Source of the DNA: a virus
Taxonomy: Duplodnaviria > Caudoviricetes
Direction: 5' to 3' (one strand)
IMG/VR virus record: IMGVR_UViG_3300015610_000633
Span: 1-64,000 of that record
DNA: 64,000 nt
The notes below the pieces were generated by a model that was not told the DNA's origin, made no database searches, and worked only from the letters and a program-made list of their open reading frames with translations. This document shows, in pieces, positions 1 through 64,000 of this stretch. Position 1 is the first letter of the stretch. The number at the start of each line of letters is the position of its first letter. The translations under genes and the position numbers were made by a program.

Positions 1-12
1 TGAAATATCCCC

Positions 13-32
13 ACGTCTACCCGGTTAGACGT
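13..32. repeat. 20-bp palindrome copy 1
   Basis: ACGTCTACCCGGTTAGACGT on +; abuts the lysin stop codon. Confidence 0.97.
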
Positions 33-808
33 CAACCATCGCTTGCGCGACGTTTTGCGTCCAGTCGGTTGCGCATATCCTCAAGCGTTTGATCGGCCAT
101 GCGATCAAGGCTTTCGGTTATCCACATCTGAACCATATCATTCGCGATCACTCGCGATGTCTTAGGACCTTCGATCGTGATGCCCTCGGGTGATAGTACG
201 CCTTGTTCTATTTCGTCCGGTGTGCCCGCTAGCCAAACAAAATCACTATCCCGACCGTCAGGCAACCTTTCGCCACCATCACCGTCATATTGCCACATGA
301 GCCACCCTGTTGATTGCCACGGCTTCGGTATCAACGGCACCTTCACGCCATAGTGCGCCACCCAAAGATCCAACGTGGTCAACATCGATGTTGACGGGTT
401 GCCTAGCTTCGAGTGCCAAAAATCATAACACGTGTATAGGATCGGCTTGTAGCCTGCTGAGTTGAGCGCAACCAAAAACTTTTCAGCGCTCTTCACCGCT
501 TCGACAGGTCCACAACCTTCGAGTGTTTCGAAGTCAATGACCGGCCTTAGTCGTGTCTTTTTTATGCACTCGATAAACATATCAGCTTGCGTGTATGGGC
601 TATGATCGGCTTCAAAGAACCAATAACAACCCGTCAACAAGCTTGCGCTCTTTGCACCTTCGTTGTGATCGTTGAACGTACCGTCAAACTTTTCACCATG
701 ACCGCCCCTAGCGATCACGAAGTTCACATCATGACGTGCGACGTTAGCCCAATCAATGCCCCGCCCTTGCGCATAGCTGACGTCTATACCGCGCGTTAGC
801 TTGCTCAT
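32..808 (-). CDS. GH25 muramidase endolysin
   Basis: N-terminal GIDVSYAQG, IARGGHG, GCYWF, PVIDFE (DxE catalytic), LWVAHY and WQY..G motifs typical of glycoside hydrolase family 25. Confidence 0.88.
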   Translation of the reverse strand: MSKLTRGIDVSYAQGRGIDWANVARHDVNFVIARGGHGEKFDGTFNDHNEGAKSASLLTGCYWFFEADHSPYTQADMFIECIKKTRLRPVIDFETLEGCGPVEAVKSAEKFLVALNSAGYKPILYTCYDFWHSKLGNPSTSMLTTLDLWVAHYGVKVPLIPKPWQSTGWLMWQYDGDGGERLPDGRDSDFVWLAGTPDEIEQGVLSPEGITIEGPKTSRVIANDMVQMWITESLDRMADQTLEDMRNRLDAKRRASDG

Positions 809-2184
809 GGTGTTACCTCGGTCTTCTCGGTGATCGTCTGTTTACCGCGTCTTACAGTCCAATCGTCGGGATCGGTATCAAGTGCGATCGGCCATTCTCT
901 AAACCGATGTTTGAACACCTTACCGAGTTCGATCACGTTATGCCGTAGGGTCGGGTGAACTGTTTTGCCACTTCTCAGTTCCAGCATGTATACAAACGCA
1001 TCGGCTGGCATGCGTGTGATGTACTGAACCATGAAACCCATCGGGATCATGTACTGAAGTTCAACGCGCATATTGCCCCCTTCATTGCTTTCAACGCGCA
1101 TGTATTGATCCCATGTGTTTTGAACATCTGAAATCAACTTTCTGCCCTCGTCTTCAACGTGTTGCGGTAGTTCTTTCAAGTACCACGCGTGAAACCGTTT
1201 AGGAGTCAACAGGGGCATGGTGGGGGGCGTGTTTCGGTGCCGTTGAATGTCTCGGAACGAACCGAAATCAATCGGTATTGTCATTGTTATCGAAATCGTC
1301 TTACCCAACCAATGCGGGATGCGCGCCCTCGGTGGACGTTTCGACATCAAGTCATAAACACAACTAGCGTGTTTGATTTCTAGAAACTCTGAAGTCGAAG
1401 TAATGAACATATCCAACGGCTTCAACTCAAAATCTTCGTACTTGTACGCGTTCACCGTTTCAAACCACTTGAACTCTTCAACGTGCCGCTTCAAGTCATG
1501 CTCGAAACTTTCGGGAAACTTCTTCGCTAGCAACTCAAATGCATTTTGAGCAAGGTTGCGCACTTCAAGCAACGGGTGAAACGCGAGTTGAGACAGGTGA
1601 TCCCATGCAACGCGCAGTGATGTGTGCCAACTAAGATTCGTTGTAACACCCGCTGGCAACCATGCCCGCATGATGTCGAACGCCCTAGCCTTCACCGCTC
1701 GTTTATAGTCTTCAACATTCTCATCAACATTGATCGGGTGCTTCGCTGCTACCGAAGCTTCGACGATTTCAAGATGCTTTTCGTAGAACGATTTGCACCG
1801 GTTTTGCACACGGATAGCTTCACTATCTTCAACCCCTTCAAACACATACACCATCGGTTGTTCAACCATGTTGATGTAACGCGTTGATGTTTCTTGACCA
1901 TTGTACAGCGGGTGATCTTGTATGGCTTTCGCCGCTAGCATCGATACACCTTCAAAAAACAGTGTAACGGTGCCACAATCCGCAATTGATGGGTGACCAT
2001 AGCCCACATAATACTTGGCCATAAATCGGCCTGAACCGACACGCTGTACCTTTTTGTAATGCTCTTCTACACTCGCCGTTGAACGACTGTACAACGCTTG
2101 CAACATCGCGTTGTCTTGTTCGTTGATGCCTGTACCCAAAAACACCTTTGTTCGTTCGCTTACTACCTTCTTCGCTAGTTCCAT
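805..2184 (-). CDS. thyX: Flavin-dependent thymidylate synthase (long, duplicated-domain ThyX/Thy1 type)
   Basis: YYVGYGHPSIADC, GQETSTRY, FRDIQRHR and YMLELRS motifs; 459 aa is the long two-domain form; GGAGG RBS upstream. Confidence 0.8.
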   Translation of the reverse strand: MELAKKVVSERTKVFLGTGINEQDNAMLQALYSRSTASVEEHYKKVQRVGSGRFMAKYYVGYGHPSIADCGTVTLFFEGVSMLAAKAIQDHPLYNGQETSTRYINMVEQPMVYVFEGVEDSEAIRVQNRCKSFYEKHLEIVEASVAAKHPINVDENVEDYKRAVKARAFDIMRAWLPAGVTTNLSWHTSLRVAWDHLSQLAFHPLLEVRNLAQNAFELLAKKFPESFEHDLKRHVEEFKWFETVNAYKYEDFELKPLDMFITSTSEFLEIKHASCVYDLMSKRPPRARIPHWLGKTISITMTIPIDFGSFRDIQRHRNTPPTMPLLTPKRFHAWYLKELPQHVEDEGRKLISDVQNTWDQYMRVESNEGGNMRVELQYMIPMGFMVQYITRMPADAFVYMLELRSGKTVHPTLRHNVIELGKVFKHRFREWPIALDTDPDDWTVRRGKQTITEKTEVTP

Positions 2185-2207
2185 GGTGGTCTTACCTCCG
2201 ACTCACC

Positions 2208-2217
2208 ATAATGCAGC
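2208..2217 (-). promoter_or_regulatory. GCTGCATWAT promoter motif (thyX)
   Basis: GCTGCATTAT on the coding strand upstream of thyX. Confidence 0.65.
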
Positions 2218-2218
2218 T

Positions 2219-5846: not shown

Positions 5847-5861
5847 GTTTTCGCGCTCCGT

Positions 5862-7040: not shown

Positions 7041-7060
7041 GGTTTCGCTCTCCGTTACTC

Positions 7061-7080
7061 ACGTCTAACCGGGTAGACGT
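7061..7080. repeat. 20-bp palindrome copy 3
   Basis: ACGTCTAACCGGGTAGACGT on +; between the cupin and ibrA-like genes. Confidence 0.97.
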
Positions 7081-8552: not shown

Positions 8553-9080
8553 CTACGTCAACAAGCAATCGGTCGGTTGAACCAACTCGAAAAACTTCAC
8601 CGCATCATAAACGATCGGATACCAGTCGTTTGCTTGAAGATGCTTGCTTACATCGAAGAACTCACACACCAACGCCGAAGTAAGATCCACGTTCAATACT
8701 GCCAAGTTTGTTTGAGATATCATCAACCACCACGGTTTGCGATTGCGCCGAAACAACATCATCGGGGTCACGTTCATTTCATGCGCTTGTGTACATGCTT
8801 GATGCCACCATGCCCACACCGGCGACTTGCGACCGTTCATGAAGTTCGACTCGCTCCAACCTTCACGCCGTTTCACTTCAACACTAAACGGGAACGATTG
8901 CGCGGTGGTCATCACATCACCCGAAGCCTTGAACGCGCTTCGTACATTCGCAGTTGACCACCCACCACTGGCCGGGGTTTTCACAAACTGACAATCTTCG
9001 TATTGTGACCACCAACTTTGAAGCATCTTAGACACTTCACGTTCAGCCACACCGCCCTTCACTTTGCCGTTGATTGCCAT
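8553..9080 (-). CDS. Holliday junction resolvase-like PD-(D/E)XK nuclease
   Basis: KGGVAERE, GD...SVEVKRRE, WWHQA, PMMLFRRNRKPW. Confidence 0.72.
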   Translation of the reverse strand: MAINGKVKGGVAEREVSKMLQSWWSQYEDCQFVKTPASGGWSTANVRSAFKASGDVMTTAQSFPFSVEVKRREGWSESNFMNGRKSPVWAWWHQACTQAHEMNVTPMMLFRRNRKPWWLMISQTNLAVLNVDLTSALVCEFFDVSKHLQANDWYPIVYDAVKFFELVQPTDCLLT

Positions 9081-9082
9081 GG

Positions 9083-11029
9083 TTACCTAGCCGTGATCTT
9101 GTTACCAGTTGATTGCGCTTCAATGAATATTTCACCGGGGTATCGTTCGAGTATTGCGCGATCGTGCGCAACAACGAACGCTTGCTCAAAACCATACGTG
9201 CTCTTCAGCATGGTTTCGATATGAGTAGCGAACAACTTTTTATTTGCATGGTCGAGTTGCCCGAAAGGTTCATCAAGCATTGCAAGCCCCCATTGCGTGC
9301 CACGTTGCGTTCTAAGCCACGAACTAGCGGCCAACTGGTAAGCAGCACCCGCCAAGTCTTCGGCGGCCCCTGAACGGTCACTGAGTGTCACTGTTAGCTG
9401 ATACTTTCGTGATTGAGTTCGAGGGCTTGAACACTTGGTACATACCTTGACCCTTTGACCCGGCCCGAATGTTTGTCCGCACTCTTCACAGTTCGTCGCT
9501 AGCTTTTTGCCCTCGGTGTACCATGAGATCTTTGTTTCGAGATCTATGCCGATGCCTTCAAGTAGCGCATTCGCGTTAGTTTCGATCTCTGCCAACGCTT
9601 GTTCACCTGCTTTGCGTTGCGCACCACTAGGCCCCAAAGCAACCGCCATAAGTTGCCACATATCGCGAAGTTCTTCGAACTTGCGAACGGTGCGCTTCAA
9701 CTCATCGCGCTTCGGGATCAACTCGTTCACCGATGTCTTCATTCGTTCAACCGTGGTTCGTATGGTGCGAAGGTTCACAAGACGATCCACATCATCACCG
9801 CTCACTTGTTGCGGCTTCGGGTTGTCACGTATCCAAGCAATGGCATCTTTCGCCGCTTCGTATTGCCTCCTGAACTCTTCAATCCGAGCTTCATCACGAA
9901 GCGTTTGTGTTAGCTGCTTTTCAAGTGAATCGACTATATCGATCAACTTGTTTTTTTCTTGTACAGCAACATCGGCTTCTTGCTTCTTCGTTCGGGCTTC
10001 TTCGGTTTGACTAGACAACTCAGCCTGTACCTGTTCGGGTGTATGACAACCCTTGCAAGTCACAGGACACACACCATCAAACCCGCGCTCAACCTGCTTC
10101 AAATAGTAATCGGCCGTTTGTGTCTTGCGTGCCGCTTCTGTTGTGAGCTTGTAAAGCTCCGTTCGCTTCTCGCTCAACCGTTGCGATATGGGTTCGCTTG
10201 ATGCACCCAACCGTTGTTTGAACTCGCGAGCGTTCGTGATGATTTCATCAACACTATCGGCCCTTTCTTTCATGGTCTGCCACTTCGCGAGCCTCTCTTG
10301 AACTCGCTCATATGTAGCAACCCGACCTTGTGCGATCTCAATCTCAGCATCCAACGCCGCGATCGCTTCATCGACTCGTGACATGTTCGATTCTGTCACT
10401 TCGATGTTTAGGATCTTAGACAATGATTCGATCGCCCTCGTGATCGTCGCTTCAACAGTCAGCAGTGAACCCATATTCAAGCTAACGGTTGTGGTGGTTG
10501 TCTTCTCTTTCTCTTTGGCTACTTCAACCGCCTTATCGAGCTTACTAAGGTCAAGCCATGCCTTGACCATGTCTAGCCGTTCACTCGGTGATGACAGAAT
10601 GAATCGGGCCATTTGCCGTTGCTCGAAATAACAGGTGTTGAAGAAATCACGTTGCGACATGCCGAACATACGCAACACCCGATCGCTAGCTACTTGATCA
10701 ACGAACTCGCCTTCATTGTCTTTCAAATAAAGTTTGGTTGCACCACCATCGCGAAACCGTTTGATCGTTGTGCCGTTACTCATCACCAACGTAACCGAAC
10801 CCGAACGTTCACCACGGGTGATCCATGCTTCTTCGCGATCAAACCGGTGATATCCGAACAATGCGAACGGTATCGACTCCAAGAACGTCGACTTGCCTAC
10901 CCAGTTCGATCGTTCGTGGTTGTGTTGTTGTCGAGCAACAACGGCGTACACCTTCGGTTCAAGATCAAGTTGTTGAAGGCCACGATATCGACACCAGTTT
11001 TCAAGAATAATTTGCTTCACATACATCAC
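9083..11029 (-). CDS. sbcC: SbcC/Rad50-like SMC ATPase
   Basis: Walker A variant NWVGKST, Q-loop YFEQ, coiled coils with CPVTC Zn hook, signature-like SGAAE, Walker B LAMLDEPFGQLD, His switch VVAHD. Confidence 0.88.
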   Translation of the reverse strand: MMYVKQIILENWCRYRGLQQLDLEPKVYAVVARQQHNHERSNWVGKSTFLESIPFALFGYHRFDREEAWITRGERSGSVTLVMSNGTTIKRFRDGGATKLYLKDNEGEFVDQVASDRVLRMFGMSQRDFFNTCYFEQRQMARFILSSPSERLDMVKAWLDLSKLDKAVEVAKEKEKTTTTTVSLNMGSLLTVEATITRAIESLSKILNIEVTESNMSRVDEAIAALDAEIEIAQGRVATYERVQERLAKWQTMKERADSVDEIITNAREFKQRLGASSEPISQRLSEKRTELYKLTTEAARKTQTADYYLKQVERGFDGVCPVTCKGCHTPEQVQAELSSQTEEARTKKQEADVAVQEKNKLIDIVDSLEKQLTQTLRDEARIEEFRRQYEAAKDAIAWIRDNPKPQQVSGDDVDRLVNLRTIRTTVERMKTSVNELIPKRDELKRTVRKFEELRDMWQLMAVALGPSGAQRKAGEQALAEIETNANALLEGIGIDLETKISWYTEGKKLATNCEECGQTFGPGQRVKVCTKCSSPRTQSRKYQLTVTLSDRSGAAEDLAGAAYQLAASSWLRTQRGTQWGLAMLDEPFGQLDHANKKLFATHIETMLKSTYGFEQAFVVAHDRAILERYPGEIFIEAQSTGNKITAR

Positions 11030-27663: not shown

Positions 27664-27673
27664 ATTATGCAGC
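27664..27673 (-). promoter_or_regulatory. GCTGCATWAT promoter motif (leaderless spacing)
   Basis: Overlaps the Ala-Ala-stop of the MTase-helicase; ATG 6 nt downstream. Confidence 0.65.
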
Positions 27674-30600
27674 GCTATCCCGTTGCAATAGCTCGAACAA
27701 CATCTTGCCAATATTATCGAAGCCAATGTTCAATACATCTTCACTCGAAGCACCCGCGGCTTCAAGGGCTGACTCACCACTAAGCCCGTCAGTCTGCAAA
27801 CTGACCGCTACCTTAGCCATGAGCAACGATTGAAGCTGTTCTTGCAATGACCCGGTGTATATGGGTATTAGCATTCGAGTAGGTTGGGTTTGTCCTATTC
27901 GATCAATACGACCGTTAGCTTGTCGCATTATTTCGGGGTTGCATGCTGGATTCTCAAACCAAATAGCCGTACTAAACGAAACCAGGTTGTTGATGCCTGT
28001 CTTGACCCCAACCGGGTTCAACACCAACACACGCTTACCCGGCTTCAATACGTTCGTTTCAATCCAGCTTTCACGCTCATGCGGCGGCACCTTACGCGAC
28101 TCAAGCAATGCAACGGGTTCACCAATATTTTCTTCAATGACCCGCTTCAATCTTGGCAATAGTTCAACATGATACCCGTACACAATGACTTTGCGACCTT
28201 CACATAGTTCGGCTTTCACCCTTTCAATCAACCATTGCTCTTTGGGCAACAACGATCGATTCATCGGTGGTTCACTTGCGACAATATCACCGCCCATATT
28301 TTCGGGATATCTAATCACGTATTCACCACCCGTTGTATTGCCGGCATCGGGAACACATCGATCCAAGAATGAAGGTAGTTCTGACATTTGACCCCATAGC
28401 TTGCCGTTGCGTTCGGTAAACATGTCAGAAGATATTTGAGCCTTCAACGCCGTCAACAATCTTTCATATGCTTCACGTTGCTCGGGTAGCATTGCAACAC
28501 GAATGGTTTCTTGTGTGCTAGGCGGTAGGTCAAGTTGAAGATCTTCTTTGTGCAATGTGACCGCGATCGGTAGAAGATGTTTGATTACTAGCAGCGGCAA
28601 TACTCCCGGTGCGACCCCCACCTTTCGCGCGCTAGTAACTACCCGATCGGATTGAATCCCATATTCTACCGATTTTTTCTTACCATCACCTAGTTCAACC
28701 ACCTGTTTTCGATAACCATATCGATCAACAAATCGTTCAACATCTTCGCGCTCGAACTCACTCCTGAACCGTTGCGACATGTACCAAAGGTTGGCAAACA
28801 ATGAATGAGCGTAACCGTTCATGATTGAACCTGTCATCAATAGAGTAGGCTTACCAAGTTGAACAAGTCGGTGTGCTGCTTTCTCTTGTGCACTACCATC
28901 GGCCGAATATTCATGACCCTCGTCTAGAATCAAAAAATCAAAACAATGTTTTGCATGTTTCGCAATATAGGTACTAAGAGCAATACGCCTCGGTTTGGGT
29001 GTCGAATAATACAACGGTTCACCGCATTCTTTCACCCGCGTTAGTCCGCAAAAACTAACCAAGAACTTCAACACATCAAGCAATGCTTCACTTGAACGTT
29101 GACGCCTGTAAACAAAAATATTGTTATTCAATGTCAATGAACATTCGGGTTCAATACTCTTCAAATGTTCGGGAACAACCACACCCTTCAACTCACACGC
29201 CTTATTGCATAGGTCAACAATACTAAACACCCATTGTTTGGATTCATATTTATTCATTGCTTTCTCGATTCTATTGACCCGATTCAACACATCAACGAAA
29301 TCATCACACACGGCTGCTATTAGTTTCAATGTATTTACAATGAATAGTTCGCGAATATCATTGTTCACCTGTTGTATTGATTCAATCATTTGAACCATCA
29401 ACCGTTCGAGTGCAGGCAAACCCCGAACATGATTTTCAATCATAGTTTTGTTTTCATCAACCGTATATTTATCAACGCTTGACCGCTTACGATATACCCC
29501 TTGAGGCAATAGCATTTTGATCGTTTCGTCGTTTGAATACGCCGCATTCAAACACCGAGCAAGCTTCACAACACTATCGGCCCACGGATGCGGGTCGCTA
29601 CCCACTTGCGACAACATGACAGTGTTTGAACACTTCTCACGCTTGCGTGCATAATCTTTGCGCTCAATCGGCAAACCACATGATGGGCATATATTCGAAA
29701 CCGAACCCTTTTCATGATCTAGTTTTGCCGCCTCTCTCGACAATATACCGAGTGCAAAACCATTCATTGAACTGAACTCTTCAATGTCCTGTATTGATTG
29801 CAATACTTTGGTGTTATTACGACCAAACACCTCTGTGTATTGATTCTGCCATGATTGCAACAAGTGGGGCGGACACATGACAATCACTCGTTCAGCCTTC
29901 AACATCTTAGCAACAACCAATGATACGGTTGACTTACCACAACCGATCTCACCTAGTAGGATTGCACTGGTCGCTTTAGTCTCTTTGCTTTGATCTGAAA
30001 ACAACTTTACCAATGCTCGAACAGTATGTGATTGCGCGGTGTACAATCGTCTTCGTGTTCTTGGCAGTATGTATTGACTCGCATCGGCAGGGGTATAGTT
30101 CACAGGGCATTGTTCGAGCATTACGCGCAACATGTCTCGACTGTAATAATACAATAGATCCGCCACTGTCATTTCACTTACCGATGACAGTTTTTCGTTC
30201 ACAATCACACCTTGCGGTAGCTGTCGCAATACTTTGTTTTCAAGATCAAATACTGTCACGGTTAGCTTCGGTTGTTGTACCTGAACCAATGATGTGACAG
30301 TACCCGATTTGTCTGCATTCTCTTTGATTGTCCTGAACTCTTTGTCAAACACGCCCTTCACTAGCAATGGTGGCAACCCTTTTGTGTTCGGCATTATTCG
30401 TGCCCCATTGAAGACACCCGCTGCAACTGCAGTCGCTACATGCGCAGGCTTAGGGCTTGCCGCTAGTGGGTAAGATTGCTGCAACAATGAATCAATATTT
30501 TTTTGCGGGTATGTATTACGACCAGCGATCGCTGAACCTTTCTTACCTGTGAAATGAAAGGGTACATGTTGCAGCATAACATCGGCTTCATTTATTTTTC

Positions 30601-31375
30601 GTATATCAAAGTTCGTGATCCATTCGTTATTATTATCAACCTGATATTCGATTACTTCCATTGATTCAATGTTGGGTATTGTATCGGGTTCGGTTGCCCA
30701 CCTTTCAACATTTCGAGAAATGAACCAATCGGGTATCACTCGGGTCATTGTTCGACGCGCTACAACGATCACCTGTTTGAATAGATCATATTCAGGGTTC
30801 GGGAACTTATAGCATTGCACCGATTCATAATGCATTGCGAGGGTTCTAACACTGGCAATCAATGCATAATAAGGCACAACGAAAAACAACAATGAATACG
30901 GGTTCAACCATCGTGTGACATGTCGAAGAAACGCTTCTTCTGTTCTTCGGTACAATCGATCATGATCATAAGGGGGGTTCAACCAACATATGCCCAACCC
31001 CTTAGACCGATGCGAAGATATACTGCACAACAATGCATTAGCGTTCACCACAACACTCGTATCATACATTTTTCGTTCTTTGCTTAGTTCAACACCGAAT
31101 AGTTCGGCGCATTGTTTAGCTCTATCACCTTCAAGTTCGATTGCTCGGGTGAATACCCAGCCCTTACAGTTTTCGCTTATTTGATTTTCAACATGGGCTT
31201 GCAATGACTTGATCGCATGACCTTCACCCGCGCAAGGGTCGATTATTGTAACGGCGGGATATGACCATCGACTACCGGTGAATGATTCGGGCTTTAGCTT
31301 ACTCGCCACCATATCAACCACTCGTGAAGGTGTTGCGAAGTATCCCGAAACCGCTTGTGATTCAAGTCGTGCCAT
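27665..31375 (-). CDS. N6-adenine DNA methyltransferase-like domain fused to a SNF2-type helicase (DarB/DUF6094-like)
   Basis: DPCAGEG SAM-binding and LNPPY catalytic motifs in the N-terminal 250 aa; GEIGCGKS, DEGH, MTGS, GINNL, QANGRIDRIGQ helicase motifs. Confidence 0.82.
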   Translation of the reverse strand: MARLESQAVSGYFATPSRVVDMVASKLKPESFTGSRWSYPAVTIIDPCAGEGHAIKSLQAHVENQISENCKGWVFTRAIELEGDRAKQCAELFGVELSKERKMYDTSVVVNANALLCSISSHRSKGLGICWLNPPYDHDRLYRRTEEAFLRHVTRWLNPYSLLFFVVPYYALIASVRTLAMHYESVQCYKFPNPEYDLFKQVIVVARRTMTRVIPDWFISRNVERWATEPDTIPNIESMEVIEYQVDNNNEWITNFDIRKINEADVMLQHVPFHFTGKKGSAIAGRNTYPQKNIDSLLQQSYPLAASPKPAHVATAVAAGVFNGARIMPNTKGLPPLLVKGVFDKEFRTIKENADKSGTVTSLVQVQQPKLTVTVFDLENKVLRQLPQGVIVNEKLSSVSEMTVADLLYYYSRDMLRVMLEQCPVNYTPADASQYILPRTRRRLYTAQSHTVRALVKLFSDQSKETKATSAILLGEIGCGKSTVSLVVAKMLKAERVIVMCPPHLLQSWQNQYTEVFGRNNTKVLQSIQDIEEFSSMNGFALGILSREAAKLDHEKGSVSNICPSCGLPIERKDYARKREKCSNTVMLSQVGSDPHPWADSVVKLARCLNAAYSNDETIKMLLPQGVYRKRSSVDKYTVDENKTMIENHVRGLPALERLMVQMIESIQQVNNDIRELFIVNTLKLIAAVCDDFVDVLNRVNRIEKAMNKYESKQWVFSIVDLCNKACELKGVVVPEHLKSIEPECSLTLNNNIFVYRRQRSSEALLDVLKFLVSFCGLTRVKECGEPLYYSTPKPRRIALSTYIAKHAKHCFDFLILDEGHEYSADGSAQEKAAHRLVQLGKPTLLMTGSIMNGYAHSLFANLWYMSQRFRSEFEREDVERFVDRYGYRKQVVELGDGKKKSVEYGIQSDRVVTSARKVGVAPGVLPLLVIKHLLPIAVTLHKEDLQLDLPPSTQETIRVAMLPEQREAYERLLTALKAQISSDMFTERNGKLWGQMSELPSFLDRCVPDAGNTTGGEYVIRYPENMGGDIVASEPPMNRSLLPKEQWLIERVKAELCEGRKVIVYGYHVELLPRLKRVIEENIGEPVALLESRKVPPHERESWIETNVLKPGKRVLVLNPVGVKTGINNLVSFSTAIWFENPACNPEIMRQANGRIDRIGQTQPTRMLIPIYTGSLQEQLQSLLMAKVAVSLQTDGLSGESALEAAGASSEDVLNIGFDNIGKMLFELLQRDSAA

Positions 31376-31393
31376 GTTGTGTTCTTGTCTTTC

Positions 31394-31413
31394 ACGTCTA
31401 ACCGGGTAGACGT
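31394..31413. repeat. 20-bp palindrome copy 8
   Basis: Exact match; 5 nt downstream of a promoter motif, upstream of the MTase-helicase. Confidence 0.97.
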
Positions 31414-31418
31414 CAACC

Positions 31419-31428
31419 ATTATGCAGC
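31419..31428 (-). promoter_or_regulatory. GCTGCATWAT promoter motif
   Basis: Followed by palindrome copy 8. Confidence 0.65.
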
Positions 31429-32064: not shown

Positions 32065-32903
32065 TTTGAGATCTCCGTTTGATTTACTACCCGAGCAACT
32101 ACTGCTTCGAATGCTTCCTGATTACTGCGACATTGCAGACATTCAACAAAACCCAATGCTTCGTTGTCACTTGTAAACACCGGGCCATTTTCGCCGAATG
32201 TCTCGCGTTGATATTTATTAGCCGACGAATATCTAACAATGCCAGCTTTCAAACATTCCAAGAACAACCGAACTTGAAACCGAAGTGAAGGCAATATTGG
32301 AACACGCGACCGACGATCGGCATATAGGCAAAATGTGGTTGCACAATACACCAATGAGTTGGCTCGCTCATGCCATTTACGTTCATTGTAATCGGCGTTT
32401 TGCCAATATGTTTCCAATATCGTTTTGCACCATTCGCCAATATACGGATCAACTTTAGCTATTATTTCATTTTGATTATCACACCAATGCCTAACCACGG
32501 GTGCAACGAACTTGATTTCATCGGGGTCAATCAAACCGGGATCTTGTTCAATCAAATCATTGTTGAATATTTGCACTGTTGAGCCTTCGGGCATGTGTTG
32601 CCAATAAAAAGACCACTTAGTTTTCTTGGTAAGTTCAAGCGTCGGATAAGGGTTAGTATGTGCCCTTCGATTGATCGGACGATCAATCAACCAAAGTTTT
32701 CGGCCTGTCTTCATATTTGCCACAATAGCCCGAAGTGATGATTCGTCGCCGAGCAATACAGCGTATGTCGGGTTCATTATCTTGTCATCGCTCTTATAGC
32801 CTTCAAGCATTGACGAAACAACCGAGCCAACAAGGCGGGCTTCGAAAGCCCGACCCTTTGAACCCGCTCGCTCAACTCTAACCCGTTCACTCATGCCCAC
32901 CAT
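32061..32903 (-). CDS. Hypothetical protein, first gene left of the origin-like region
   Basis: 280-aa ORF directly after a GCTGCATTAT motif; probable start at 32894. Confidence 0.65.
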   Translation of the reverse strand: MVGMSERVRVERAGSKGRAFEARLVGSVVSSMLEGYKSDDKIMNPTYAVLLGDESSLRAIVANMKTGRKLWLIDRPINRRAHTNPYPTLELTKKTKWSFYWQHMPEGSTVQIFNNDLIEQDPGLIDPDEIKFVAPVVRHWCDNQNEIIAKVDPYIGEWCKTILETYWQNADYNERKWHERANSLVYCATTFCLYADRRSRVPILPSLRFQVRLFLECLKAGIVRYSSANKYQRETFGENGPVFTSDNEALGFVECLQCRSNQEAFEAVVARVVNQTEISK

Positions 32904-32914: not shown

Positions 32915-33265
32915 CTTCGAAACCGTAACAAGAAATCGGATCAAAAAATCACGTCTACCCGGTTAGACGTCGGGGCGGGGGGTTGGGGGGTTGGGGCACC
33001 CTGCTTCGGCGTTCCGCCGTTGTTGGCCATGGTTGATTCACGAAAACATCGGGGTTCGTTTTTCCCTTCTCCCCCTGCACCCCCTTATCCCTTTTCAAGA
33101 TTTCACTTCGTGAAATCTTAAGTTTTTGATCTCTTTGATCTTTTTTGATCTTCGGATCTATATGGATCTTAGATCTTATTATTAAGATCAAAAGACTAAC
33201 CGCGCGCATACATACACGCGTGCGCGTACACATACGCGAGAGAAACACAGCGACATATTTTTGAA
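32915..33265. other. Candidate replication origin / divergent control region
   Basis: Largest gene-free stretch; lies between divergent promoters; contains a palindrome copy, two G4 motifs, seven GATC sites in 62 bp and a 38-bp alternating RY tract. Confidence 0.5.
32951..32970. repeat. 20-bp palindrome copy 9
   Basis: Exact match; in the origin-like region next to a G4 motif. Confidence 0.97.
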
Positions 33266-33279: not shown

Positions 33280-33960
33280 ATGAATATGTTCGCTCACGAG
33301 ATCTCACCCGACTTCAACTCAAAACGGTTCACAATCAAAGACTACTTGACGGTTACGGCTGACAAAAAGCTAGGATATGCCCTAATCTTGGGCAGCAAAG
33401 ATCCTAACACTGAGCTAGGCCGGTTTGAAAAGATAGCCGTTGATCAACGTCGCCCCCCTGCAATGGAGTTGCAGCCATGGCGAGACAAAAGCAATCGTTC
33501 ACGGTGGTCAATACGAATGGCTCAATATAGGCAATATGCGCTTGAGAGCGGAACCGTGAAGGTTGGGTTGATAGCTCCTGATCTCAAGTGGGTAGACTCA
33601 GATAATGATCAACTTCTTGTGCGAATCAACACACACATGAAGGGCAACCCTTCGGAACTGGCAAGGGAAGGAACGATCGACATTCTAACCCCTTCACTTG
33701 CCATTAGAGTCGCCGATCCCGCATGGCATCAGTTCGGTGCCCATAAAGCACAAGATTGGCTTCTACGTCTCAAGCCAGGGGCCATAGTTTCTATTCATTG
33801 CGATCACGTCGGTATTAGACCTGTGTACGTGGTCTATATCGATGATGAACTAAAGTTGAACCCCCACATGTTGCCCGAACCATCACCACCCCCTTCACGC
33901 ATTCATTGGTTAGATACTAACCCGATCAATGCCACATGCACCACCTTCGCAGGTTTCTAG
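33280..33960 (+). CDS. Hypothetical protein, the only credible plus-strand gene
   Basis: 226-aa ORF directly after a GCCGCATAAT motif on the plus strand; no long minus-strand ORF occupies this space. Confidence 0.65.
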   Translation: MNMFAHEISPDFNSKRFTIKDYLTVTADKKLGYALILGSKDPNTELGRFEKIAVDQRRPPAMELQPWRDKSNRSRWSIRMAQYRQYALESGTVKVGLIAPDLKWVDSDNDQLLVRINTHMKGNPSELAREGTIDILTPSLAIRVADPAWHQFGAHKAQDWLLRLKPGAIVSIHCDHVGIRPVYVVYIDDELKLNPHMLPEPSPPPSRIHWLDTNPINATCTTFAGF

Positions 33961-35908: not shown

Positions 35909-35928
35909 ACGTCTAACCGGGTAGACGT
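35909..35928. repeat. 20-bp palindrome copy 10
   Basis: Exact match; upstream of nrdJ. Confidence 0.97.
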
Positions 35929-35933
35929 CACTG

Positions 35934-44257: not shown

Positions 44258-46606
44258 TCACGCTTTCTGAACGTCTACGAGTTGAACCAATGCAGAACAC
44301 CGCAACGCGTTTGTACCTGCTGTTTTTGAAAATGTCAGTCGAAGATTTGTACCCGAACCACTAAGAGCCAAACCCCAATCAGTCGGTGTTGTGGTTGAAC
44401 CTTCAACGTCACCCGCGTCAATGACTGTCACAGTACCCGAATTGTTTTTGATCAATGCGTTGGTTAGTTTCAACCGGCCTACATTTGTGAATGAAGCAGA
44501 CGTTGCAACCATCCAGACATCAACAGAATAGATCCTATTTGATCGGGTTATTATTTCTTGATCGGCCGAAGGGCCAGCCATTAGATTGACGCTTGCACTA
44601 GCAGAAGCAGCGGTTACACCCGACACTTGAACACGGCTGTTTTGAGGGTTGCCCGAAGCGTTACCCGAAGCATGTGCAACCTCGCCATAACTGGCCGCAT
44701 ACGCATAATAACCCATTGCGATCGCGGTAACATTTGCAGCGGTGTTCAATATACCCACTGCAAACGCACTGTTACCCGAAGCAGTGTTTTGATTGCCGAA
44801 AGCCATAGCGGCAAACACGCTTGTAGTGTTGCTATACCCAACACAAACCGAATAATCGGCCGTTGCAATATTAAAACCGCCTATACATACCGAAACCGAA
44901 CCTGATGAACTATTGGAAGCACCGATCGCGATTGCATAATTATTTGAAGTCGTATTACTAACGCCTATGCATGTCGAGTCGTTACCCGAAGCCGTATTAG
45001 AACGACCCCACCAAATACCACCGTTACCCGAAGAGCCTGAACCTATTTGACCGCGCTGTGTTGACCCGTGGTAAAACTCAATATATCCCGATCGGGTTGT
45101 ACCAGTTCCCGAATAGAACTGGAGCTTGCCACCGATTGTAGTTGTACCGGTTGCGTTTTGAGCCTGTATCGCAAATGCGGCACCGGTTGCACTATTGGTT
45201 GTAATATCCTGTTGATAAAAACCAACTGTACCTGTTAGCGATGACACGAAGGTCAAATATTTACCCGTCGGTGATAGTTGCATTCGATCAACACCACCCG
45301 TTCTAAGATATATTGAACCGTTTGCAGTACCACCCGAACCTGAACCGAGAATAAGATCGCCACCCGTAGTTGCTGCATTTTGAGCCAGCAAATACATAGT
45401 CGCACCTTTAGCGGCTAGCGTTGCCGAAATATAATAAGTAACTGAAGTACACGTTGATGAAGCCAAAATATTCAAATCGGTTGTGTCGCCATACATGATG
45501 AGATTCAAGTTATCAGTATAAAAACCAAATGTGCCCACTTCGGGCATATACGCCATTACACGATTGTTGTTTACACCATCGCCCAGATAAACAGTAGTAT
45601 CAACCCAACTAAGTGTTTTGAACGGTGTACCCAAACCATCGGCATCACCGCCATATATTGCCGCACCGTCATTAGTTAGAAAATACAAACCCGAGTTAGT
45701 TATTTTCGCGACATCGCTTGCAGTATCAAACCGAAAATATGTTGAACCCGTTAGAGCCGCGTTGATAAACAATGAAGGTACATTTGACCCACCGAATGTA
45801 AGCGTGTCATCGGCTACTGACACCGCATTGTAATCAGTACCGCTATTACGAAACGCCGCGATCGTAGTGTTTGATTCGGTACGAATGCAACCCGTTGTTG
45901 CGGGTGTCGTTCCGAACTTCACGGCGGTCAACGTCGGTGTTGAAGAGTATACCGGTGAGCTACTTGTAACCCCGGCTAGTACGGTGCCCGTAGTGCCTTG
46001 GGGCAAATCGGAAAGTGAAAGGGTAGCGGCTGCAACAACCCCCGCAGTTGCCTTTAGGACGCCCGTCAACGTGCCGATCGTTAGTCCTGATACCGTAGGG
46101 GTAGAAGTGAAGTTAGAAGAAGCACCGGTGCCTGCTAGCACGGTGCCCGATGCCCCAACGGGAAGGGAACCCGCCAACAAGTCGGTGAAGATTGTTTCAA
46201 GGGCTTCGGCCCAACCCTTTACCGATAGGCCCGTAGCGTGTTCGGCCATTTCACCGAATGCGGGGAAACGCCAACCCCTGCGAACAGTTGCACCCGCGTT
46301 GTCTTTAGTGACTCCGATCAAACGCGTTTGTACATTGCCGCTAGTGCTTTGCCCGTTCGTGGTAAGTCGAACAAGGTACGTACCCGGTTGATCGGGTGTG
46401 AAAGTAGCAGTAGCCGATGTCGCGTTAGTTAGTGTCGCGCTGCTACCCGTTGGAATGTCTAGCAGTTCCCAAAGATAGGAAGTGTTACCCGCTAGGGTAG
46501 AAACCAGGTTGATCGCTTGTTGGTTCCACAAACCCGAACGCGCAAGGCCCGCCGTTCCCGTACCTGCACCGCTTGGTTGATCGATTCGTATCTTTGCGCC
46601 GGGCAT
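44258..46606 (-). CDS. Tail fibre / adhesin-like protein with YadA/Hep-Hag-type repeats
   Basis: PKD-like N-terminus (SYLWEL...ATATFTPDQPGTYLVRLT); repeated AIAIG/SVCIG/AFAVG 14-residue units. Confidence 0.75.
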   Translation of the reverse strand: MPGAKIRIDQPSGAGTGTAGLARSGLWNQQAINLVSTLAGNTSYLWELLDIPTGSSATLTNATSATATFTPDQPGTYLVRLTTNGQSTSGNVQTRLIGVTKDNAGATVRRGWRFPAFGEMAEHATGLSVKGWAEALETIFTDLLAGSLPVGASGTVLAGTGASSNFTSTPTVSGLTIGTLTGVLKATAGVVAAATLSLSDLPQGTTGTVLAGVTSSSPVYSSTPTLTAVKFGTTPATTGCIRTESNTTIAAFRNSGTDYNAVSVADDTLTFGGSNVPSLFINAALTGSTYFRFDTASDVAKITNSGLYFLTNDGAAIYGGDADGLGTPFKTLSWVDTTVYLGDGVNNNRVMAYMPEVGTFGFYTDNLNLIMYGDTTDLNILASSTCTSVTYYISATLAAKGATMYLLAQNAATTGGDLILGSGSGGTANGSIYLRTGGVDRMQLSPTGKYLTFVSSLTGTVGFYQQDITTNSATGAAFAIQAQNATGTTTIGGKLQFYSGTGTTRSGYIEFYHGSTQRGQIGSGSSGNGGIWWGRSNTASGNDSTCIGVSNTTSNNYAIAIGASNSSSGSVSVCIGGFNIATADYSVCVGYSNTTSVFAAMAFGNQNTASGNSAFAVGILNTAANVTAIAMGYYAYAASYGEVAHASGNASGNPQNSRVQVSGVTAASASASVNLMAGPSADQEIITRSNRIYSVDVWMVATSASFTNVGRLKLTNALIKNNSGTVTVIDAGDVEGSTTTPTDWGLALSGSGTNLRLTFSKTAGTNALRCSALVQLVDVQKA

Positions 46607-60658: not shown

Positions 60659-60678
60659 ACGTCTAACCGGGTAAACGT
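60659..60678. repeat. 20-bp palindrome copy 15 (one mismatch)
   Basis: ACGTCTAACCGGGTAAACGT. Confidence 0.92.
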
Positions 60679-60962
60679 CAAAGAAGATCTTTGATTCTAC
60701 CTATCAACAAGCGGATCGCTAGCTCGTTATTATCGCCTTTCGATCTTCGTTTGATCACCGTTGCTAGTTCGTCCGTTAGTGATGAACCAATTGAAGCGTA
60801 GTTCATCACATAACTGTCACCATTGTAGTTATTCCAAATAGCATCGGCATGCTTTGAATCGGTCGAACTAACGATCGTATCACCCGGTTTGAACGTTTGA
60901 CTAGTGCCATCAAACACCGCTGTGAAGCCTACGAGAACAAGCATTTTTGCAGGTGCAGACAT
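60678..60962 (-). CDS. Small hypothetical protein
   Basis: Start placed at MSAP, downstream of the capsid terminator. Confidence 0.5.
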   Translation of the reverse strand: MSAPAKMLVLVGFTAVFDGTSQTFKPGDTIVSSTDSKHADAIWNNYNGDSYVMNYASIGSSLTDELATVIKRRSKGDNNELAIRLLIGRIKDLL

Positions 60963-60976
60963 GTTGTGTTTACTCC

Positions 60977-61002
60977 AAAAAGAAAGGCCCCCGAAGGGCC
61001 TT
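60977..61002 (-). terminator. Rho-independent terminator after the major capsid gene
   Basis: AAGGCCC-TTCG-GGGGCCTT (C-UUCG-G tetraloop) plus TCTTTTT. Confidence 0.82.
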
Positions 61003-61030
61003 GTTGTGGTTGTGGGTAACTGCGAACTAA

Positions 61031-62422: not shown

Positions 62423-62549
62423 GTGTTTAGACCTTTCGTGTGAGATTGTCTCAGCCTTGAAGGGTCCGACTATTAGAAACCGGTCGTTCGGCGTAGGCTA
62501 GACTTAGTACCCTTGAACGACGCCCCCTAGCGCCGTCAAGTTCCAAACA

Positions 62550-63437
62550 TCAAACGTTGATACCCATCGACTTCTTGAGTTGTTCGAACTCTTGTTTGGT
62601 CATCGAGTTCGGCTTACCCGGTCGAACGTCTTTACCGTTGATCATCGTGGGTGCATTGGTTCCCGAAGGTTGCGGTGTTGGCCGCGCACCTTTCGGCCCC
62701 GTCGTTACCCCTACTTTCGGTTTAGCTTGCGGTTTAGGTGCAGGCTTAGGGTCAGCAGCGGGTACACTCGGTGCGACCGGTGAAGCGGCATACACGGGGT
62801 TTTTTTGAATGTACTTCTTGAACCATTGTTCAAGGTGTTTTTCGGTGAACTGTGACAACTGCTTTTCTGTGTAGTTACTGGTCAAGTCTTCGGCCAAGTC
62901 GCGCAACACATGCCTAGCGTAAGCCATGTTGATGTGTTTTGCGGCTATACCCTTGATCATACTACCGGCTTCGGCTGCCGTCGTTTGACGTTGAAGCTTG
63001 TTGTATTTTTGCTGCCACGTTTGAAGCTCTTTGCGCGCGTCTTCAGTAGCTTTTCGTTCGCGCTCGATTTCACTCATGCGCGCCTTCTCTGCTTCTTCGC
63101 GCTCTTTCTTCATCGACTCATACTCAGTCTTCATCTTCAAAACTTCTTGAACGTTATCCGTTCCAAAAAGTTTTTTCAGTTGCGACCTTTGAAGTCGATT
63201 CATGCGCTCGATGAACGCGTCATATGGCAGAGAAATCAAACCCTTCTCATCCATACGTTGCGTTACATCTTTCATATCATCGGGCAGAAGCCTCGCTACG
63301 TCATCGCGACTTAGCGAAGGCTTAGGCGATGGTTTATCAACAGGCTTAGTTTCGGGTTTTTCAGGCGATGATGGTGGCGCCACACCATCGCCCGCGGGTG
63401 CTTGTTGTTGCTGCTGTGTAGGGTTGGGTTCAGGCAT
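62550..63437 (-). CDS. Capsid scaffolding protein
   Basis: P/Q-rich N-terminus, central coiled coil, P/K-rich C-terminus; upstream of the capsid gene. Confidence 0.7.
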   Translation of the reverse strand: MPEPNPTQQQQQAPAGDGVAPPSSPEKPETKPVDKPSPKPSLSRDDVARLLPDDMKDVTQRMDEKGLISLPYDAFIERMNRLQRSQLKKLFGTDNVQEVLKMKTEYESMKKEREEAEKARMSEIERERKATEDARKELQTWQQKYNKLQRQTTAAEAGSMIKGIAAKHINMAYARHVLRDLAEDLTSNYTEKQLSQFTEKHLEQWFKKYIQKNPVYAASPVAPSVPAADPKPAPKPQAKPKVGVTTGPKGARPTPQPSGTNAPTMINGKDVRPGKPNSMTKQEFEQLKKSMGINV

Positions 63438-63457
63438 TTTTCAAAGCTCCGTTGTTC

Positions 63458-63477
63458 ACGTCTAACCGGGTAGACGT
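63458..63477. repeat. 20-bp palindrome copy 16
   Basis: Exact match; upstream of the scaffold gene. Confidence 0.97.
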
Positions 63478-63486
63478 GAAGGGATA

Positions 63487-64000
63487 TCAGATCAACGCTG
63501 ACTCTGCTAGCAGAGTCTCATGTGCATTCACGCTTGGATACATCAAGAACGACAACTTGCATGATGTAACCGCATCGGTGTTTTTGAAGTTCACCGTGTT
63601 CTTGTTGAGTGCAAGTGCGCACTCTTGAGAACTCAACGAGGCGCCTGGTTTATCAACATATTGTCGACCGGTAACGGTACCGGTGAGCGCTTCGGCTTTC
63701 ACGAGCATCAACACCTTGCCCTGATATCGTGTCGGGATCGTTGCTGCGTTTGAAGACACAGTAAGTTCAAGATCTTCAACAAGATCGCCATACACCGGGT
63801 GATAACACACATCAACCAATGTGTAAGCATCGGCGGCTGCTGTAACGATATCCCCATCGGGTGAAACTGCGATCTCACCCGCGCCGGGAATGGTACCCGA
63901 AGCAACAACGGTAAGCGGGCCACATGTACCCGTACCGGTTCGCGCGTATGCGCTCACGATGCTTGCAGCTTTGGCGTTGTTGGGTAGCGCGATTGTGTCG
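63487..64000 (-). CDS. Head-region protein, 5'-truncated by the window edge
   Basis: The frame of ORF 63487..63957 stays open to the window end (DTIALPNNAKAASIVSAY...). Confidence 0.55.
   Translation of the reverse strand, partial: DTIALPNNAKAASIVSAYARTGTGTCGPLTVVASGTIPGAGEIAVSPDGDIVTAAADAYTLVDVCYHPVYGDLVEDLELTVSSNAATIPTRYQGKVLMLVKAEALTGTVTGRQYVDKPGASLSSQECALALNKNTVNFKNTDAVTSCKLSFLMYPSVNAHETLLAESALI

What the first reader, a model, noticed from the sequence alone, without database searches (positions are those of the whole stretch)
1..64000. Extreme depletion of AATT and TTAA
Seen, by eye and so approximate: I found only about three AATT (1984, 11009, 44440) and three TTAA (33118, 33182, 44871), whereas base composition predicts roughly 250-300 of each. 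AT-rich stretches such as 29-31 kb lack them even though AAAT, ATTA, TAAT and TATA are common. Other 4-bp palindromes (GATC, CCGG, ACGT, CTAG, AGCT) are abundant. Two of the three TTAA sit in the origin-like region. Known: phages deplete sites of host restriction enzymes, and MseI-type (TTAA) and MluCI/Tsp509I-type (AATT) enzymes exist. Inference: there is strong long-term selection against these two sites, from a host defence or from a phage-encoded nuclease that cuts host DNA but spares its own. An A/T-only target would also escape any C- or G-directed base modification.
Basis: partly seen in the sequence, partly recalled or inferred. Interest (0 to 1): 0.75.

Follow-up and report, generated by a model that had tools for sequence, protein, structure and literature searches.

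The report
Phage genome purged of AATT and TTAA
An uncultured wastewater phage has removed about 98% of the expected AATT and TTAA sites by silent codon changes, most likely to escape two four-base restriction enzymes of its unknown host; this is a very clean case of a known strategy.

Summary
The 64-kb window has 5 AATT and 3 TTAA; the 73.7-kb record has 6 and 3. Base composition predicts about 280-310 of each, a maximal-order Markov model 189 and 111, and synonymous-codon shuffles 273 and 197. O/E is 0.02-0.03, while the next-lowest tetramer is 0.54. All three codon phases and the DNA outside my gene calls are purged. Codon choice switches with context: GAA is 75% of Glu codons but 0 of 70 before TTx.

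Contigs from an independent wastewater study reproduce the sequence, so it is not an assembly or base-calling artefact. Relatives from IMG/VR (major capsid 51-64% identical) are not depleted in AATT (pooled O/E 1.04). One distant relative has lost TTAA alone (2 vs 68), and others have lost GATC or GGCC. This phage also lacks CCCGGG, ATTACC, CTGATC and CCACAG, among others.

This pattern fits host-specific avoidance of Type II restriction sites. I could not identify the host or its enzymes.

This scan earlier noted AATT depletion in cyanophages that carry their own EcoRI-like nuclease. I found no such gene in the 81% of this genome on record, so that rival is weakened, not excluded.

Verdict: a new, extreme member of a known kind, of moderate interest, mainly as a host-finding signature.

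The parts
1..64000 (.). Window-wide purge of AATT and TTAA: 5 and 3 sites, O/E about 0.02-0.03. It continues to the end of the 73.7-kb record.
1984..1987 (.). Surviving AATT, inside the ThyX-like gene 805-2184.
11009..11012 (.). Surviving AATT, near the 5' end of the SbcC-like gene 9083-11029.
33118..33185 (.). Two surviving TTAA (33118, 33182) bracketing eight GATC in about 70 bp. They lie in the 376-bp gap between divergent genes. The gap is origin- or regulatory-like; the ORF 32955-33248 called there is probably spurious.
44258..46606 (-). Tail-fibre-like gene (782 aa; weak PKD and YadA-head-like repeats). Its C-terminal third holds 3 of the 9 surviving sites (AATT 44440, TTAA 44871, AATT 44938) plus several other words that are otherwise nearly absent. 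It is probably recently recombined DNA.
60789..60792 (.). Surviving AATT, in small ORF 60678-61034.
8553..9080 (-). It is not a site-specific restriction enzyme.
   Evidence: phrog_244, E 3.6e-22.
33280..33960 (+). It has no family and one homologue, and the model was unusable. It carries four words that are otherwise rare in this genome.
27665..31420 (-). 1251-aa fusion of a DUF6094 methyltransferase-like domain with a ResIII/SNF2 helicase. It is lineage-specific and is the only methyltransferase-like protein found. It is not a stand-alone Type II methylase.
32061..32903 (-). First gene leftward of the origin-like gap (280 aa), lineage-specific. I tested it as a possible hidden nuclease. The model is confident, but no nuclease or any other known fold matched.

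Best explanation
The phage has eliminated AATT and TTAA because they are cleavage sites of two separate Type II restriction-modification systems common in its still unknown wastewater host population. One system would have Tsp509I/MluCI-type specificity (AATT) and the other MseI-type specificity (TTAA). Unmethylated incoming phage DNA is cut at every such site, so each site lowers the chance of a successful infection. Mutations that remove a site are favoured and mutations that create one are purged.

Every AATT or TTAA in a coding frame can be removed by a synonymous change, so about 470 sites could be lost at no cost to proteins. The few survivors sit where sequence is constrained (the GATC-rich origin-like gap) or probably newly imported (the C-terminal part of the tail fibre).

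Shown: the purge, its independence from codon usage, how it is achieved at the codon level, its lineage specificity, and the separability of the two words. Inferred: that the selecting agents are host restriction enzymes.
For: 1. Both words are 4-bp palindromes with O/E 0.02-0.03 under Markov and codon-preserving nulls. No other tetramer falls below 0.54.
2. All three codon phases are purged equally: AATT 2/89, 1/77, 3/110; TTAA 1/68, 2/137, 0/80. The 6.8 kb outside my gene calls has 0 AATT and 2 TTAA against about 30 expected of each.
3. Codon choice flips only where a site would form. Before TTx: GAA 0 of 70, AAA 0 of 73, CAA 1 of 47. AAT before T: 2 of 93. ATT after A: 3 of 189. Before AAx: GTT 0 of 40, ATT 0 of 103, TTT 1 of 88.
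4. The phage uses site loss generally. Against maximal-order Markov expectations: CCCGGG 0/21.6, ATTACC 0/24.6, CTGATC 2/25.9, CCACAG 0/12.5, GGATCC 0/10.5.
5. The purge is lineage-specific. Pooled over 59 related loci of at least 12 kb, AATT O/E is 1.04 and TTAA 0.68.
6. The two words are separable. Relative G001 (85.6 kb, GC 62%) has TTAA 2 vs 68 but AATT 128 vs 102.
7. Other relatives purged other Type II palindromes: L061 GATC 0 vs 75, L034 GGCC 9 vs 82, G005 CCCGGG 0 vs 43.
8. Contigs from a second study reproduce the sequence almost exactly: 23 differing letters over about 17 kb of long pieces. Their loose ends carry Illumina-adapter and random-amplification primer sequence, as I read them, so a methylation-driven long-read base-calling artefact is unlikely.
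9. Rusinov et al. 2018 (PMC6286503) report site elimination (compositional bias below 0.1) for orthodox Type II sites, especially in non-temperate phages. Staphylococcus phage K lacks GATC in about 140 kb (PMC6532042).
Against: The host is unknown, so no cognate restriction or methylase gene, or AATT/TTAA methylation, could be shown. Nine sites survive, and they would still be cut by the proposed enzymes. The genome also has a broad, unexplained depletion of GGA/TCC (O/E 0.34) and AAGGA (7 vs 153) that no known restriction specificity explains, so some other DNA-level force acts on this genome too. The record is only 81% complete. About 20 lineage-specific ORFs have no assigned function, so a phage-borne nuclease cannot be excluded.
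Confidence: 0.65

Rival explanations
1. The phage encodes its own AATT- and/or TTAA-cutting endonuclease without a matching methylase. It uses the enzyme to degrade host or rival-phage DNA and spares itself by having no sites. This is the reader's second option, and earlier notes of this scan proposed the same mechanism for AATT-poor cyanophages with a small EcoRI-like enzyme.
For: The purge is near-total, as self-protection without a methylase would require. The lineage has also gained a nucleotide-salvage set that its four sequenced relatives lack: dNMP kinase, a ThyX-like protein, dCMP deaminase and ribonucleotide reductase. That would suit recycling of degraded host DNA. About 20 lineage-specific ORFs are unannotated, and about 13 kb of the genome is missing: CheckV rates the record 81% complete, and clusters containing its proteins reach contigs of about 87 kb.
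Against: A six-frame search of the record with Pfam EcoRI (PF02963) and MunI (PF11407) found nothing even at E<=10. No GNAxER-type motif lies in any real ORF. No restriction-enzyme family appeared in Pfam, PHROGs, NCBIfam or PADLOC scans of about 50 ORFs. No gene is shared only with the TTAA-purged relative G001. Nine surviving sites would be self-inflicted cuts. The rival also needs two nucleases, or one with dual specificity. The many other purged sites, and the different purges in relatives, already show that this family evolves under host restriction.
Confidence: 0.15
2. Another sequence-specific host factor, not a classical Type II enzyme, selects against the two words. Candidates are a non-R-M defence system with short A/T motifs, a minor-groove-binding xenogeneic silencer, TTAA-targeting transposable elements, or PAM/TAM avoidance.
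For: Selection on the DNA words is shown, but the agent is not. The same genome carries unexplained short-word depletions (GGA/TCC, AAGGA) that do not look like classical restriction sites.
Against: Silencers and A/T-binding proteins should also penalise ATAT, TATA, AATA and TATT, yet these are normal or enriched: ATAT O/E 1.0 under the synonymous shuffle, AATA 1.61 and TATT 1.57 under the Markov model. Both words are perfect palindromes that match specificities I know from memory to exist as commercial Type II enzymes. Relatives purge GATC, GGCC and CCCGGG, all classical Type II sites. To my knowledge, PAM or transposon-target avoidance of this completeness has not been reported.
Confidence: 0.1
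3. The depletion is a by-product of composition, codon or dinucleotide bias or mutational history, or an assembly or base-calling artefact.
For: TpA is generally low (O/E 0.66). TTAA is moderately low in several relatives under the codon shuffle (0.11-0.31). In-frame TTA is almost unused in this phage.
Against: Maximal-order Markov, synonymous-shuffle and codon-order-shuffle nulls all leave a 30- to 60-fold deficit. AATT contains no TpA. Sister words sharing three letters are common. Contigs from a second study reproduce the sequence.
Confidence: 0.02

Closest known systems
Restriction-site elimination in virulent phages, e.g. loss of all GATC (Sau3A) sites in the ~140-kb Staphylococcus phage K (reviewed in PMC6532042)
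   Same: A 4-bp palindromic Type II site is removed almost completely from a large, replication-autonomous phage genome by selection rather than by base modification.
   Different: Here two A/T-only words are purged at once, together with several 6-mers. The host and its enzymes are unknown, so the link to an actual enzyme is inferred and not demonstrated.
'Eliminated sites' (compositional bias < 0.1) of orthodox Type II R-M systems in non-temperate dsDNA phages (Rusinov et al. 2018, PMC6286503)
   Same: The same statistic and the same class of site. Values of 0.02-0.03 fall well inside that paper's 'eliminated' class.
   Different: That survey pairs phages with hosts whose R-M sites are known. 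It does not mention AATT or TTAA. This case is an uncultured phage with no host assignment.
Tsp509I/MluCI/TasI (AATT) and MseI/Tru9I (TTAA) Type IIP restriction enzymes (specificities recalled from my own knowledge, not checked against REBASE here)
   Same: Their recognition sequences are exactly the two purged words.
   Different: No gene for such an enzyme or its methylase was found or could be sought, because no host genome is known. The source organisms I recall (Thermus, Micrococcus) are not obvious hosts for a 49% GC wastewater phage.
AATT-poor cyanophages carrying a small EcoRI-like nuclease
   Same: AATT is depleted by silent codon changes in a lytic-type phage.
   Different: Those notes report about 80% depletion of AATT only, tied to a phage-borne EcoRI-fold gene. 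Here depletion is 98%, includes TTAA, and no EcoRI or MunI family gene or GNAxER motif is present in the record.

Membership tests
Restriction-site avoidance by a phage (anti-restriction by site loss) | The word is strongly under-represented relative to models that keep composition, lower-order words and codon usage. | tested here: met
   O/E is 0.03 under the maximal-order Markov model and 0.02 under the synonymous and codon-order shuffles.
Restriction-site avoidance by a phage (anti-restriction by site loss) | Depletion acts on DNA, not on translation: it is independent of codon phase and also present outside genes. | tested here: met
   All three phases are at 0.00-0.03. There are 0 AATT and 2 TTAA against about 30 expected of each outside my gene calls.
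Restriction-site avoidance by a phage (anti-restriction by site loss) | The word equals the recognition sequence of a known class of restriction enzyme (a short palindrome). | not testable with these tools
   Both words are 4-bp palindromes. That AATT and TTAA cutters exist (Tsp509I/MluCI, MseI) is my own knowledge; no REBASE copy was available.
Restriction-site avoidance by a phage (anti-restriction by site loss) | Depletion is specific to the lineage or host and is not a property of the whole phage family. | tested here: met
   Pooled relatives have AATT O/E 1.04 and TTAA 0.68. Individual relatives purge TTAA only, GATC, GGCC or CCCGGG.
Restriction-site avoidance by a phage (anti-restriction by site loss) | The host encodes the cognate R-M systems. 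| not testable with these tools
   The host is unknown. The record comes from a wastewater metagenome, has no tRNA genes and no cultured relative above 30% capsid identity, and MAG bins holding relatives are taxonomically inconsistent.
Phage-encoded restriction endonuclease with self-avoidance (EcoRI-like, as in the scan's cyanophage notes) | The phage genome carries an EcoRI/MunI-family nuclease gene. | tested here: not met
   PF02963 and PF11407 six-frame searches of the 73.7-kb record gave no match at E<=10, and there is no GNAxER motif. Caveat: the record is 81% complete.
Phage-encoded restriction endonuclease with self-avoidance (EcoRI-like, as in the scan's cyanophage notes) | Presence of the gene co-varies with the depletion among relatives. 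| tested here: not met
   No ORF is shared only between this phage and the TTAA-purged relative G001.
Phage-encoded restriction endonuclease with self-avoidance (EcoRI-like, as in the scan's cyanophage notes) | Some unannotated ORF has a nuclease fold. | tested here: inconclusive
   ORF 32061-32903 gave a confident model with no nuclease match. ORF 33280-33960 could not be modelled. The other small ORFs were not folded.

The most novel reading that the evidence does not exclude
The purge is self-protection. The phage, perhaps on the unseen ~13 kb or among its fold-orphan lineage-specific ORFs, would encode a new kind of nuclease that cuts AATT and TTAA in host DNA. This nuclease would feed the lineage-specific dNMP-kinase, ThyX, dCMP-deaminase and RNR salvage set. 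The phage would then be using restriction-like enzymes as a weapon, with site loss instead of methylation as immunity.
Probability: 0.12. Interest if true: 0.75.

Novelty: new member of a known kind. Interest (0 to 1): 0.4.

Why it matters
Site elimination is a well-known anti-restriction strategy, so the principle is not new. This case has three uses.

1. It is unusually complete and clean. About 470 expected sites are reduced to 9 without any forced protein change, and the codon-level mechanism is directly visible. That makes it a good teaching and benchmarking example.

2. It gives a concrete, testable host signature for a large, entirely uncultured phage family (more than 130 IMG/VR relatives, none cultured). 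The host should carry, or methylate, AATT and TTAA, and probably CCCGGG and several asymmetric 6-mers. Long-read methylomes of MAGs from the same plants could be screened for exactly these motifs.

3. Family members have each purged a different 4-bp palindrome (AATT+TTAA, TTAA, GATC, GGCC). The family is therefore a natural system for studying how quickly restriction avoidance tracks host switches.

Tried and rejected
I could not fetch DNA of the closest relatives: capsid proteins at 83, 81 and 73% identity, and the 24.5-kb NCBI contig carrying P0122 and P0124. I could not fetch the ~87-kb full-length version either.

**Searches that found nothing.**
- A megablast of 8 kb against the phage collection gave no match.
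- A single-protein capsid scan of IMG/VR found nothing; an alignment-based scan worked.
- An exact-word scan of JGI metagenome contigs for the record's end found nothing, so I could not extend the contig.

**Host assignment failed.**
- The window has no tRNA genes.
- MAG bins that hold relatives are inconsistent: Armatimonadetes, Rickettsiales, Methylocystis, Bifidobacteriaceae.
- The nearest Atlas clusters for the GH25 endolysin are viral.
- The genome search does not draw relatives for a virus record.

**First host guess abandoned.** CGATCG and GCGATCGC enrichment made me think of a cyanophage. I dropped this once relatives proved to be 54-71% GC and showed the same GATC/CGATCG enrichment family-wide.

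**Population test, uninformative.** None of the 40 listed strain differences in 30-50 kb creates a site, but only 1.6 were expected (P=0.21).

**ORF 33280-33960 as a nuclease.** It has no Pfam, PHROG, PADLOC or NCBIfam hit and only one homologue. The AlphaFold model had pLDDT 34, and the Atlas gave no usable hit.

**ORF 32061-32903 as a nuclease.** It belongs to a family of 305 representatives, and the model has pLDDT 93. There is no Pfam match, no PDB sequence match, Foldseek E>=0.06, and best VIA-align Z of 4.7.

**Small lineage-specific ORFs.** PDB sequence searches of four further lineage-specific ORFs (136-190 aa), besides ORF 32061-32903, gave only chance-level hits.

**Literature.** A search for AATT/TTAA avoidance in phages found no specific precedent.

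**Rejected search.** I fetched the records and counted locally instead.


Full report
**1. The observation**

An exact count gives 5 AATT (1984, 11009, 44440, 44938, 60789) and 3 TTAA (33118, 33182, 44871) in the 64-kb window.

The window is the first 64 kb of a single 73,699-bp viral record. The whole record holds 6 AATT and 3 TTAA.

| Null model | Expected AATT | Expected TTAA |
|---|---|---|
| Base composition, window | 278 | 278 |
| Maximal-order Markov, window | 172 | 95 |
| Maximal-order Markov, whole record | 189 | 111 |
| Synonymous-codon shuffle, coding DNA | 273+/-12 | 197+/-10 |
| Codon-order shuffle within genes | 297 | 189 |

- Under the Markov model both words have O/E 0.03. The next-lowest of all 256 tetramers is 0.54.
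- The synonymous shuffle keeps every protein sequence and the exact codon usage. Observed coding counts are 6 and 3.
- In the same shuffles ATAT is at 1.00, and TATA, AAAT, ATTT, TAAT and ATTA are at 0.65-0.78. The effect therefore belongs to these two words, not to A/T-rich tetramers in general.
- Poisson tails are about 1e-72 and 1e-43.

**2. How the purge is built**

The three codon phases are equally empty:

| Word | Phase 0 | Phase 1 | Phase 2 |
|---|---|---|---|
| AATT | 2/89 | 1/77 | 3/110 |
| TTAA | 1/68 | 2/137 | 0/80 |

Codon choice flips only where a site would otherwise form.

| Codon | Context | Times used there |
|---|---|---|
| GAA (75% of all Glu codons) | before TTx | 0 of 70 |
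| AAA | before TTx | 0 of 73 |
| CAA | before TTx | 1 of 47 |
| AAT | before T | 2 of 93 |
| ATT | after A | 3 of 189 |
| GTT (the commonest Val codon) | before AAx | 0 of 40 |
| ATT | before AAx | 0 of 103 |
| TTT | before AAx | 1 of 88 |

- Every in-frame AATT or TTAA has a synonymous escape, so the purge need not have cost any amino-acid change.
- The 6.8 kb outside my crude gene calls has 0 AATT and 2 TTAA against about 30 expected of each. That set includes two real genes that my greedy caller dropped.
- Taken together, this is selection on the DNA words, not on translation.

**3. Not an artefact**

- The sequence is present in wastewater metagenome runs from two studies.
- Contigs from the independent study lie on 30-50 kb of the window with very few differences: 23 differing letters over about 17 kb of long pieces.
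- Their loose ends carry what I recognise as Illumina-adapter and random-amplification primer sequence. A methylation-driven long-read base-calling error is therefore unlikely.

**4. What the genome is**

- Nearly all genes are on the minus strand.
- It is a tailed phage with its own replication and recombination genes: family-B DNA polymerase, primase, DnaB-like and other helicases, RecA-like protein, SbcCD-like proteins and a RusA resolvase.
- It has a nucleotide-metabolism set: ribonucleotide reductase, a ThyX-like protein, a dNMP kinase and a dCMP deaminase.
- It also encodes a GH25 lysozyme and myovirus-type baseplate proteins.
- I found no integrase among the ORFs scanned and no tRNA genes in the window.
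- There is no near match among 50,697 deposited phage records. The best cultured capsid relative is only 30% identical.
- CheckV rates the record 81% complete. Protein clusters containing its genes reach contigs of about 87 kb.

**5. Relatives**

An alignment of capsid homologues recovered 134 IMG/VR loci, of which 80 were kept. They are 51-64% identical in the capsid and have GC 54-71%.

- Pooled over the 59 loci of at least 12 kb, AATT O/E (Markov) is 1.04 and TTAA is 0.68. The double purge is therefore specific to this lineage.
- I assembled four whole relatives from fetched pieces.
- G001 (85.6 kb, GC 62%) has TTAA 2 against 68 (Markov) or 1 against 71 (synonymous shuffle, coding DNA only). 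Its AATT is normal at 128 against 102, and it uses TTA as an ordinary codon 135 times.
- The two words are therefore purged independently, which argues for two selecting agents.

Other relatives have lost other classical Type II palindromes.

| Relative | Word | Observed vs expected |
|---|---|---|
| L061 | GATC | 0 vs 75 |
| L029 | GATC | 14 vs 58 |
| L034 | GGCC | 9 vs 82 |
| L073 | GGCC | 6 vs 39 |
| G005 | CCCGGG | 0 vs 43 |

The L061 result is notable because GATC is otherwise 2-3-fold enriched in this family.

**6. This phage avoids more than two words**

Several hexamers are missing against maximal-order Markov expectations.

| Word | Observed | Expected |
|---|---|---|
| ATTACC | 0 | 24.6 |
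| CCCGGG | 0 | 21.6 |
| CTGATC | 2 | 25.9 |
| GACCCA | 1 | 16.4 |
| CCACAG | 0 | 12.5 |
| GGATCC | 0 | 10.5 |
| CTCGAG | 0 | 9.5 |

Site loss therefore looks like this phage's general anti-restriction strategy. That makes host R-M systems the economical explanation for AATT and TTAA as well. The literature describes exactly this class:
- 'Eliminated' orthodox Type II sites occur particularly in non-temperate phages (PMC6286503).
- Phage K lacks GATC (PMC6532042).

**7. The survivors**

- Two TTAA bracket eight GATC within about 70 bp, in the only divergent intergenic gap (32904-33279). It is plausibly an origin or regulatory element with constrained sequence.
- Three of the nine survivors (44440, 44871, 44938) lie in the C-terminal third of the tail-fibre-like gene. 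That part also holds other words that are otherwise nearly absent from the genome. Receptor-binding ends of tail fibres are often exchanged between phages, so this may be recently imported DNA that has not yet been purged. That reading is inference.

**8. The rival: a phage-borne nuclease**

Earlier notes of this scan attribute AATT depletion in cyanophages to a small EcoRI-like nuclease carried by the phage. I treated that as a lead and tested it here.

- Six-frame searches of the record with Pfam EcoRI and MunI models found nothing at E<=10.
- No GNAxER-like motif lies in any real ORF.
- Family scans of about 50 ORFs found no restriction enzyme and no stand-alone methylase.
- No ORF is shared only with the TTAA-purged relative.
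33280-33960 has no family, one homologue and an unusable model with pLDDT 34.
- I also tested 32061-32903, the first gene leftward of the origin-like gap and next to the dNMP kinase. It belongs to a family of 305 representatives and folds confidently (pLDDT 93), but it matches no nuclease or any other solved fold.

The rival keeps some weight. About 13 kb is unseen, about 20 lineage-specific ORFs are unannotated, and the lineage-specific salvage genes would suit host-DNA recycling. However, it needs two nucleases and must tolerate nine self-cuts. It also does not explain the other purged sites or the family-wide pattern.

**9. Limits**

- The host could not be identified. The last link, cognate host enzymes, is therefore inferred.
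- The genome also carries a strong depletion of GGA/TCC and AAGGA that I cannot explain. It warns that restriction may not be the only DNA-level force acting here.

**10. Verdict**

- This is a new, extreme member of a known kind. Interest is moderate (0.4), mainly as a clean example and as a host-finding signature for an uncultured phage family.

Noticed in passing
whole window and record; e.g. codons GGA (94 of 1597 Gly) and TCC (49 of 1446 Ser): The trinucleotide GGA/TCC is at O/E 0.34 on both strands and in all three codon phases. AAGGA/TCCTT occurs 7 times against 153 expected. Most relatives are near 0.9. Shine-Dalgarno-like motifs upstream of genes read ACGGAG and never AAGGAG. No known restriction specificity explains a 3-mer purge.
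   Followed up: partly
whole window; cluster at 33126-33190: GATC is 2.3-fold and CGATCG about 6-fold over-represented (GCGATCGC 15 vs 1). The enrichment is family-wide among relatives of GC 54-71%, yet one relative (L061) has no GATC at all. Eight GATC lie within about 70 bp in the divergent intergenic gap.
   Followed up: partly
whole record: Further words are absent or nearly so against maximal-order Markov expectation: ATTACC 0/24.6, CCCGGG 0/21.6, CTGATC 2/25.9, ATTCAG 3/25, GACCCA 1/16.4, CCACAG 0/12.5, GGATCC 0/10.5 and CTCGAG 0/9.5. They probably reflect further host restriction specificities.
   Followed up: partly
all genes, e.g. ORF ends at 12188, 39871, 40932, 47917: In-frame TTA occurs only 21 times in about 22,500 codons. 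Most lie within a few codons of an ORF's end or start, while out-of-frame TTA is common (438). This agrees with another note of this scan that TTA may act as a stop or unassigned codon. Relative G001 uses TTA 135 times as a normal codon.
   Followed up: partly
window 32061-32903 (-): This 280-aa protein belongs to a family of 305 representatives. The AlphaFold model has pLDDT 93 and pTM 0.90. It has no Pfam family and no convincing match to any solved or viral predicted structure (best VIA-align Z 4.7), so it may be an uncharacterised fold.
   Followed up: yes
window 805-2184, 27665-31420, 31444-32064, 33910-35931; record 70042-70836: Several genes are absent from four sequenced relatives: a long ThyX-like protein (459 aa), a 1251-aa DUF6094-methyltransferase/SNF2-helicase fusion, a dNMP kinase, a ribonucleotide reductase and a dCMP deaminase. 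This dTMP-directed set coincides with the lineage's drop to 49% GC.
   Followed up: partly
window 4714-8521: A cassette of three ParB-N proteins, a cupin-like protein and a PAPS-reductase/DUF3440 protein with weak DndC/BrxP/SspD similarity. It may be a DNA-modification or DNA-binding module.
   Followed up: partly
window about 31392-31430 and 32950: Contigs from two studies break away from this sequence at these points and continue with unrelated sequence. One contig joins 30950 to 32949. The cassette holding the dNMP kinase and ORF 32061-32903 therefore seems to be replaced or absent in co-occurring strains.
   Followed up: no
related records G001 (locus L035), L061, L034, L073, G005 (locus L049): Relatives show their own purges: TTAA only (G001, 2 vs 68), GATC (L061, 0 vs 75), GGCC (L034, 9 vs 82; L073, 6 vs 39) and CCCGGG (G005, 0 vs 43).
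   Followed up: yes
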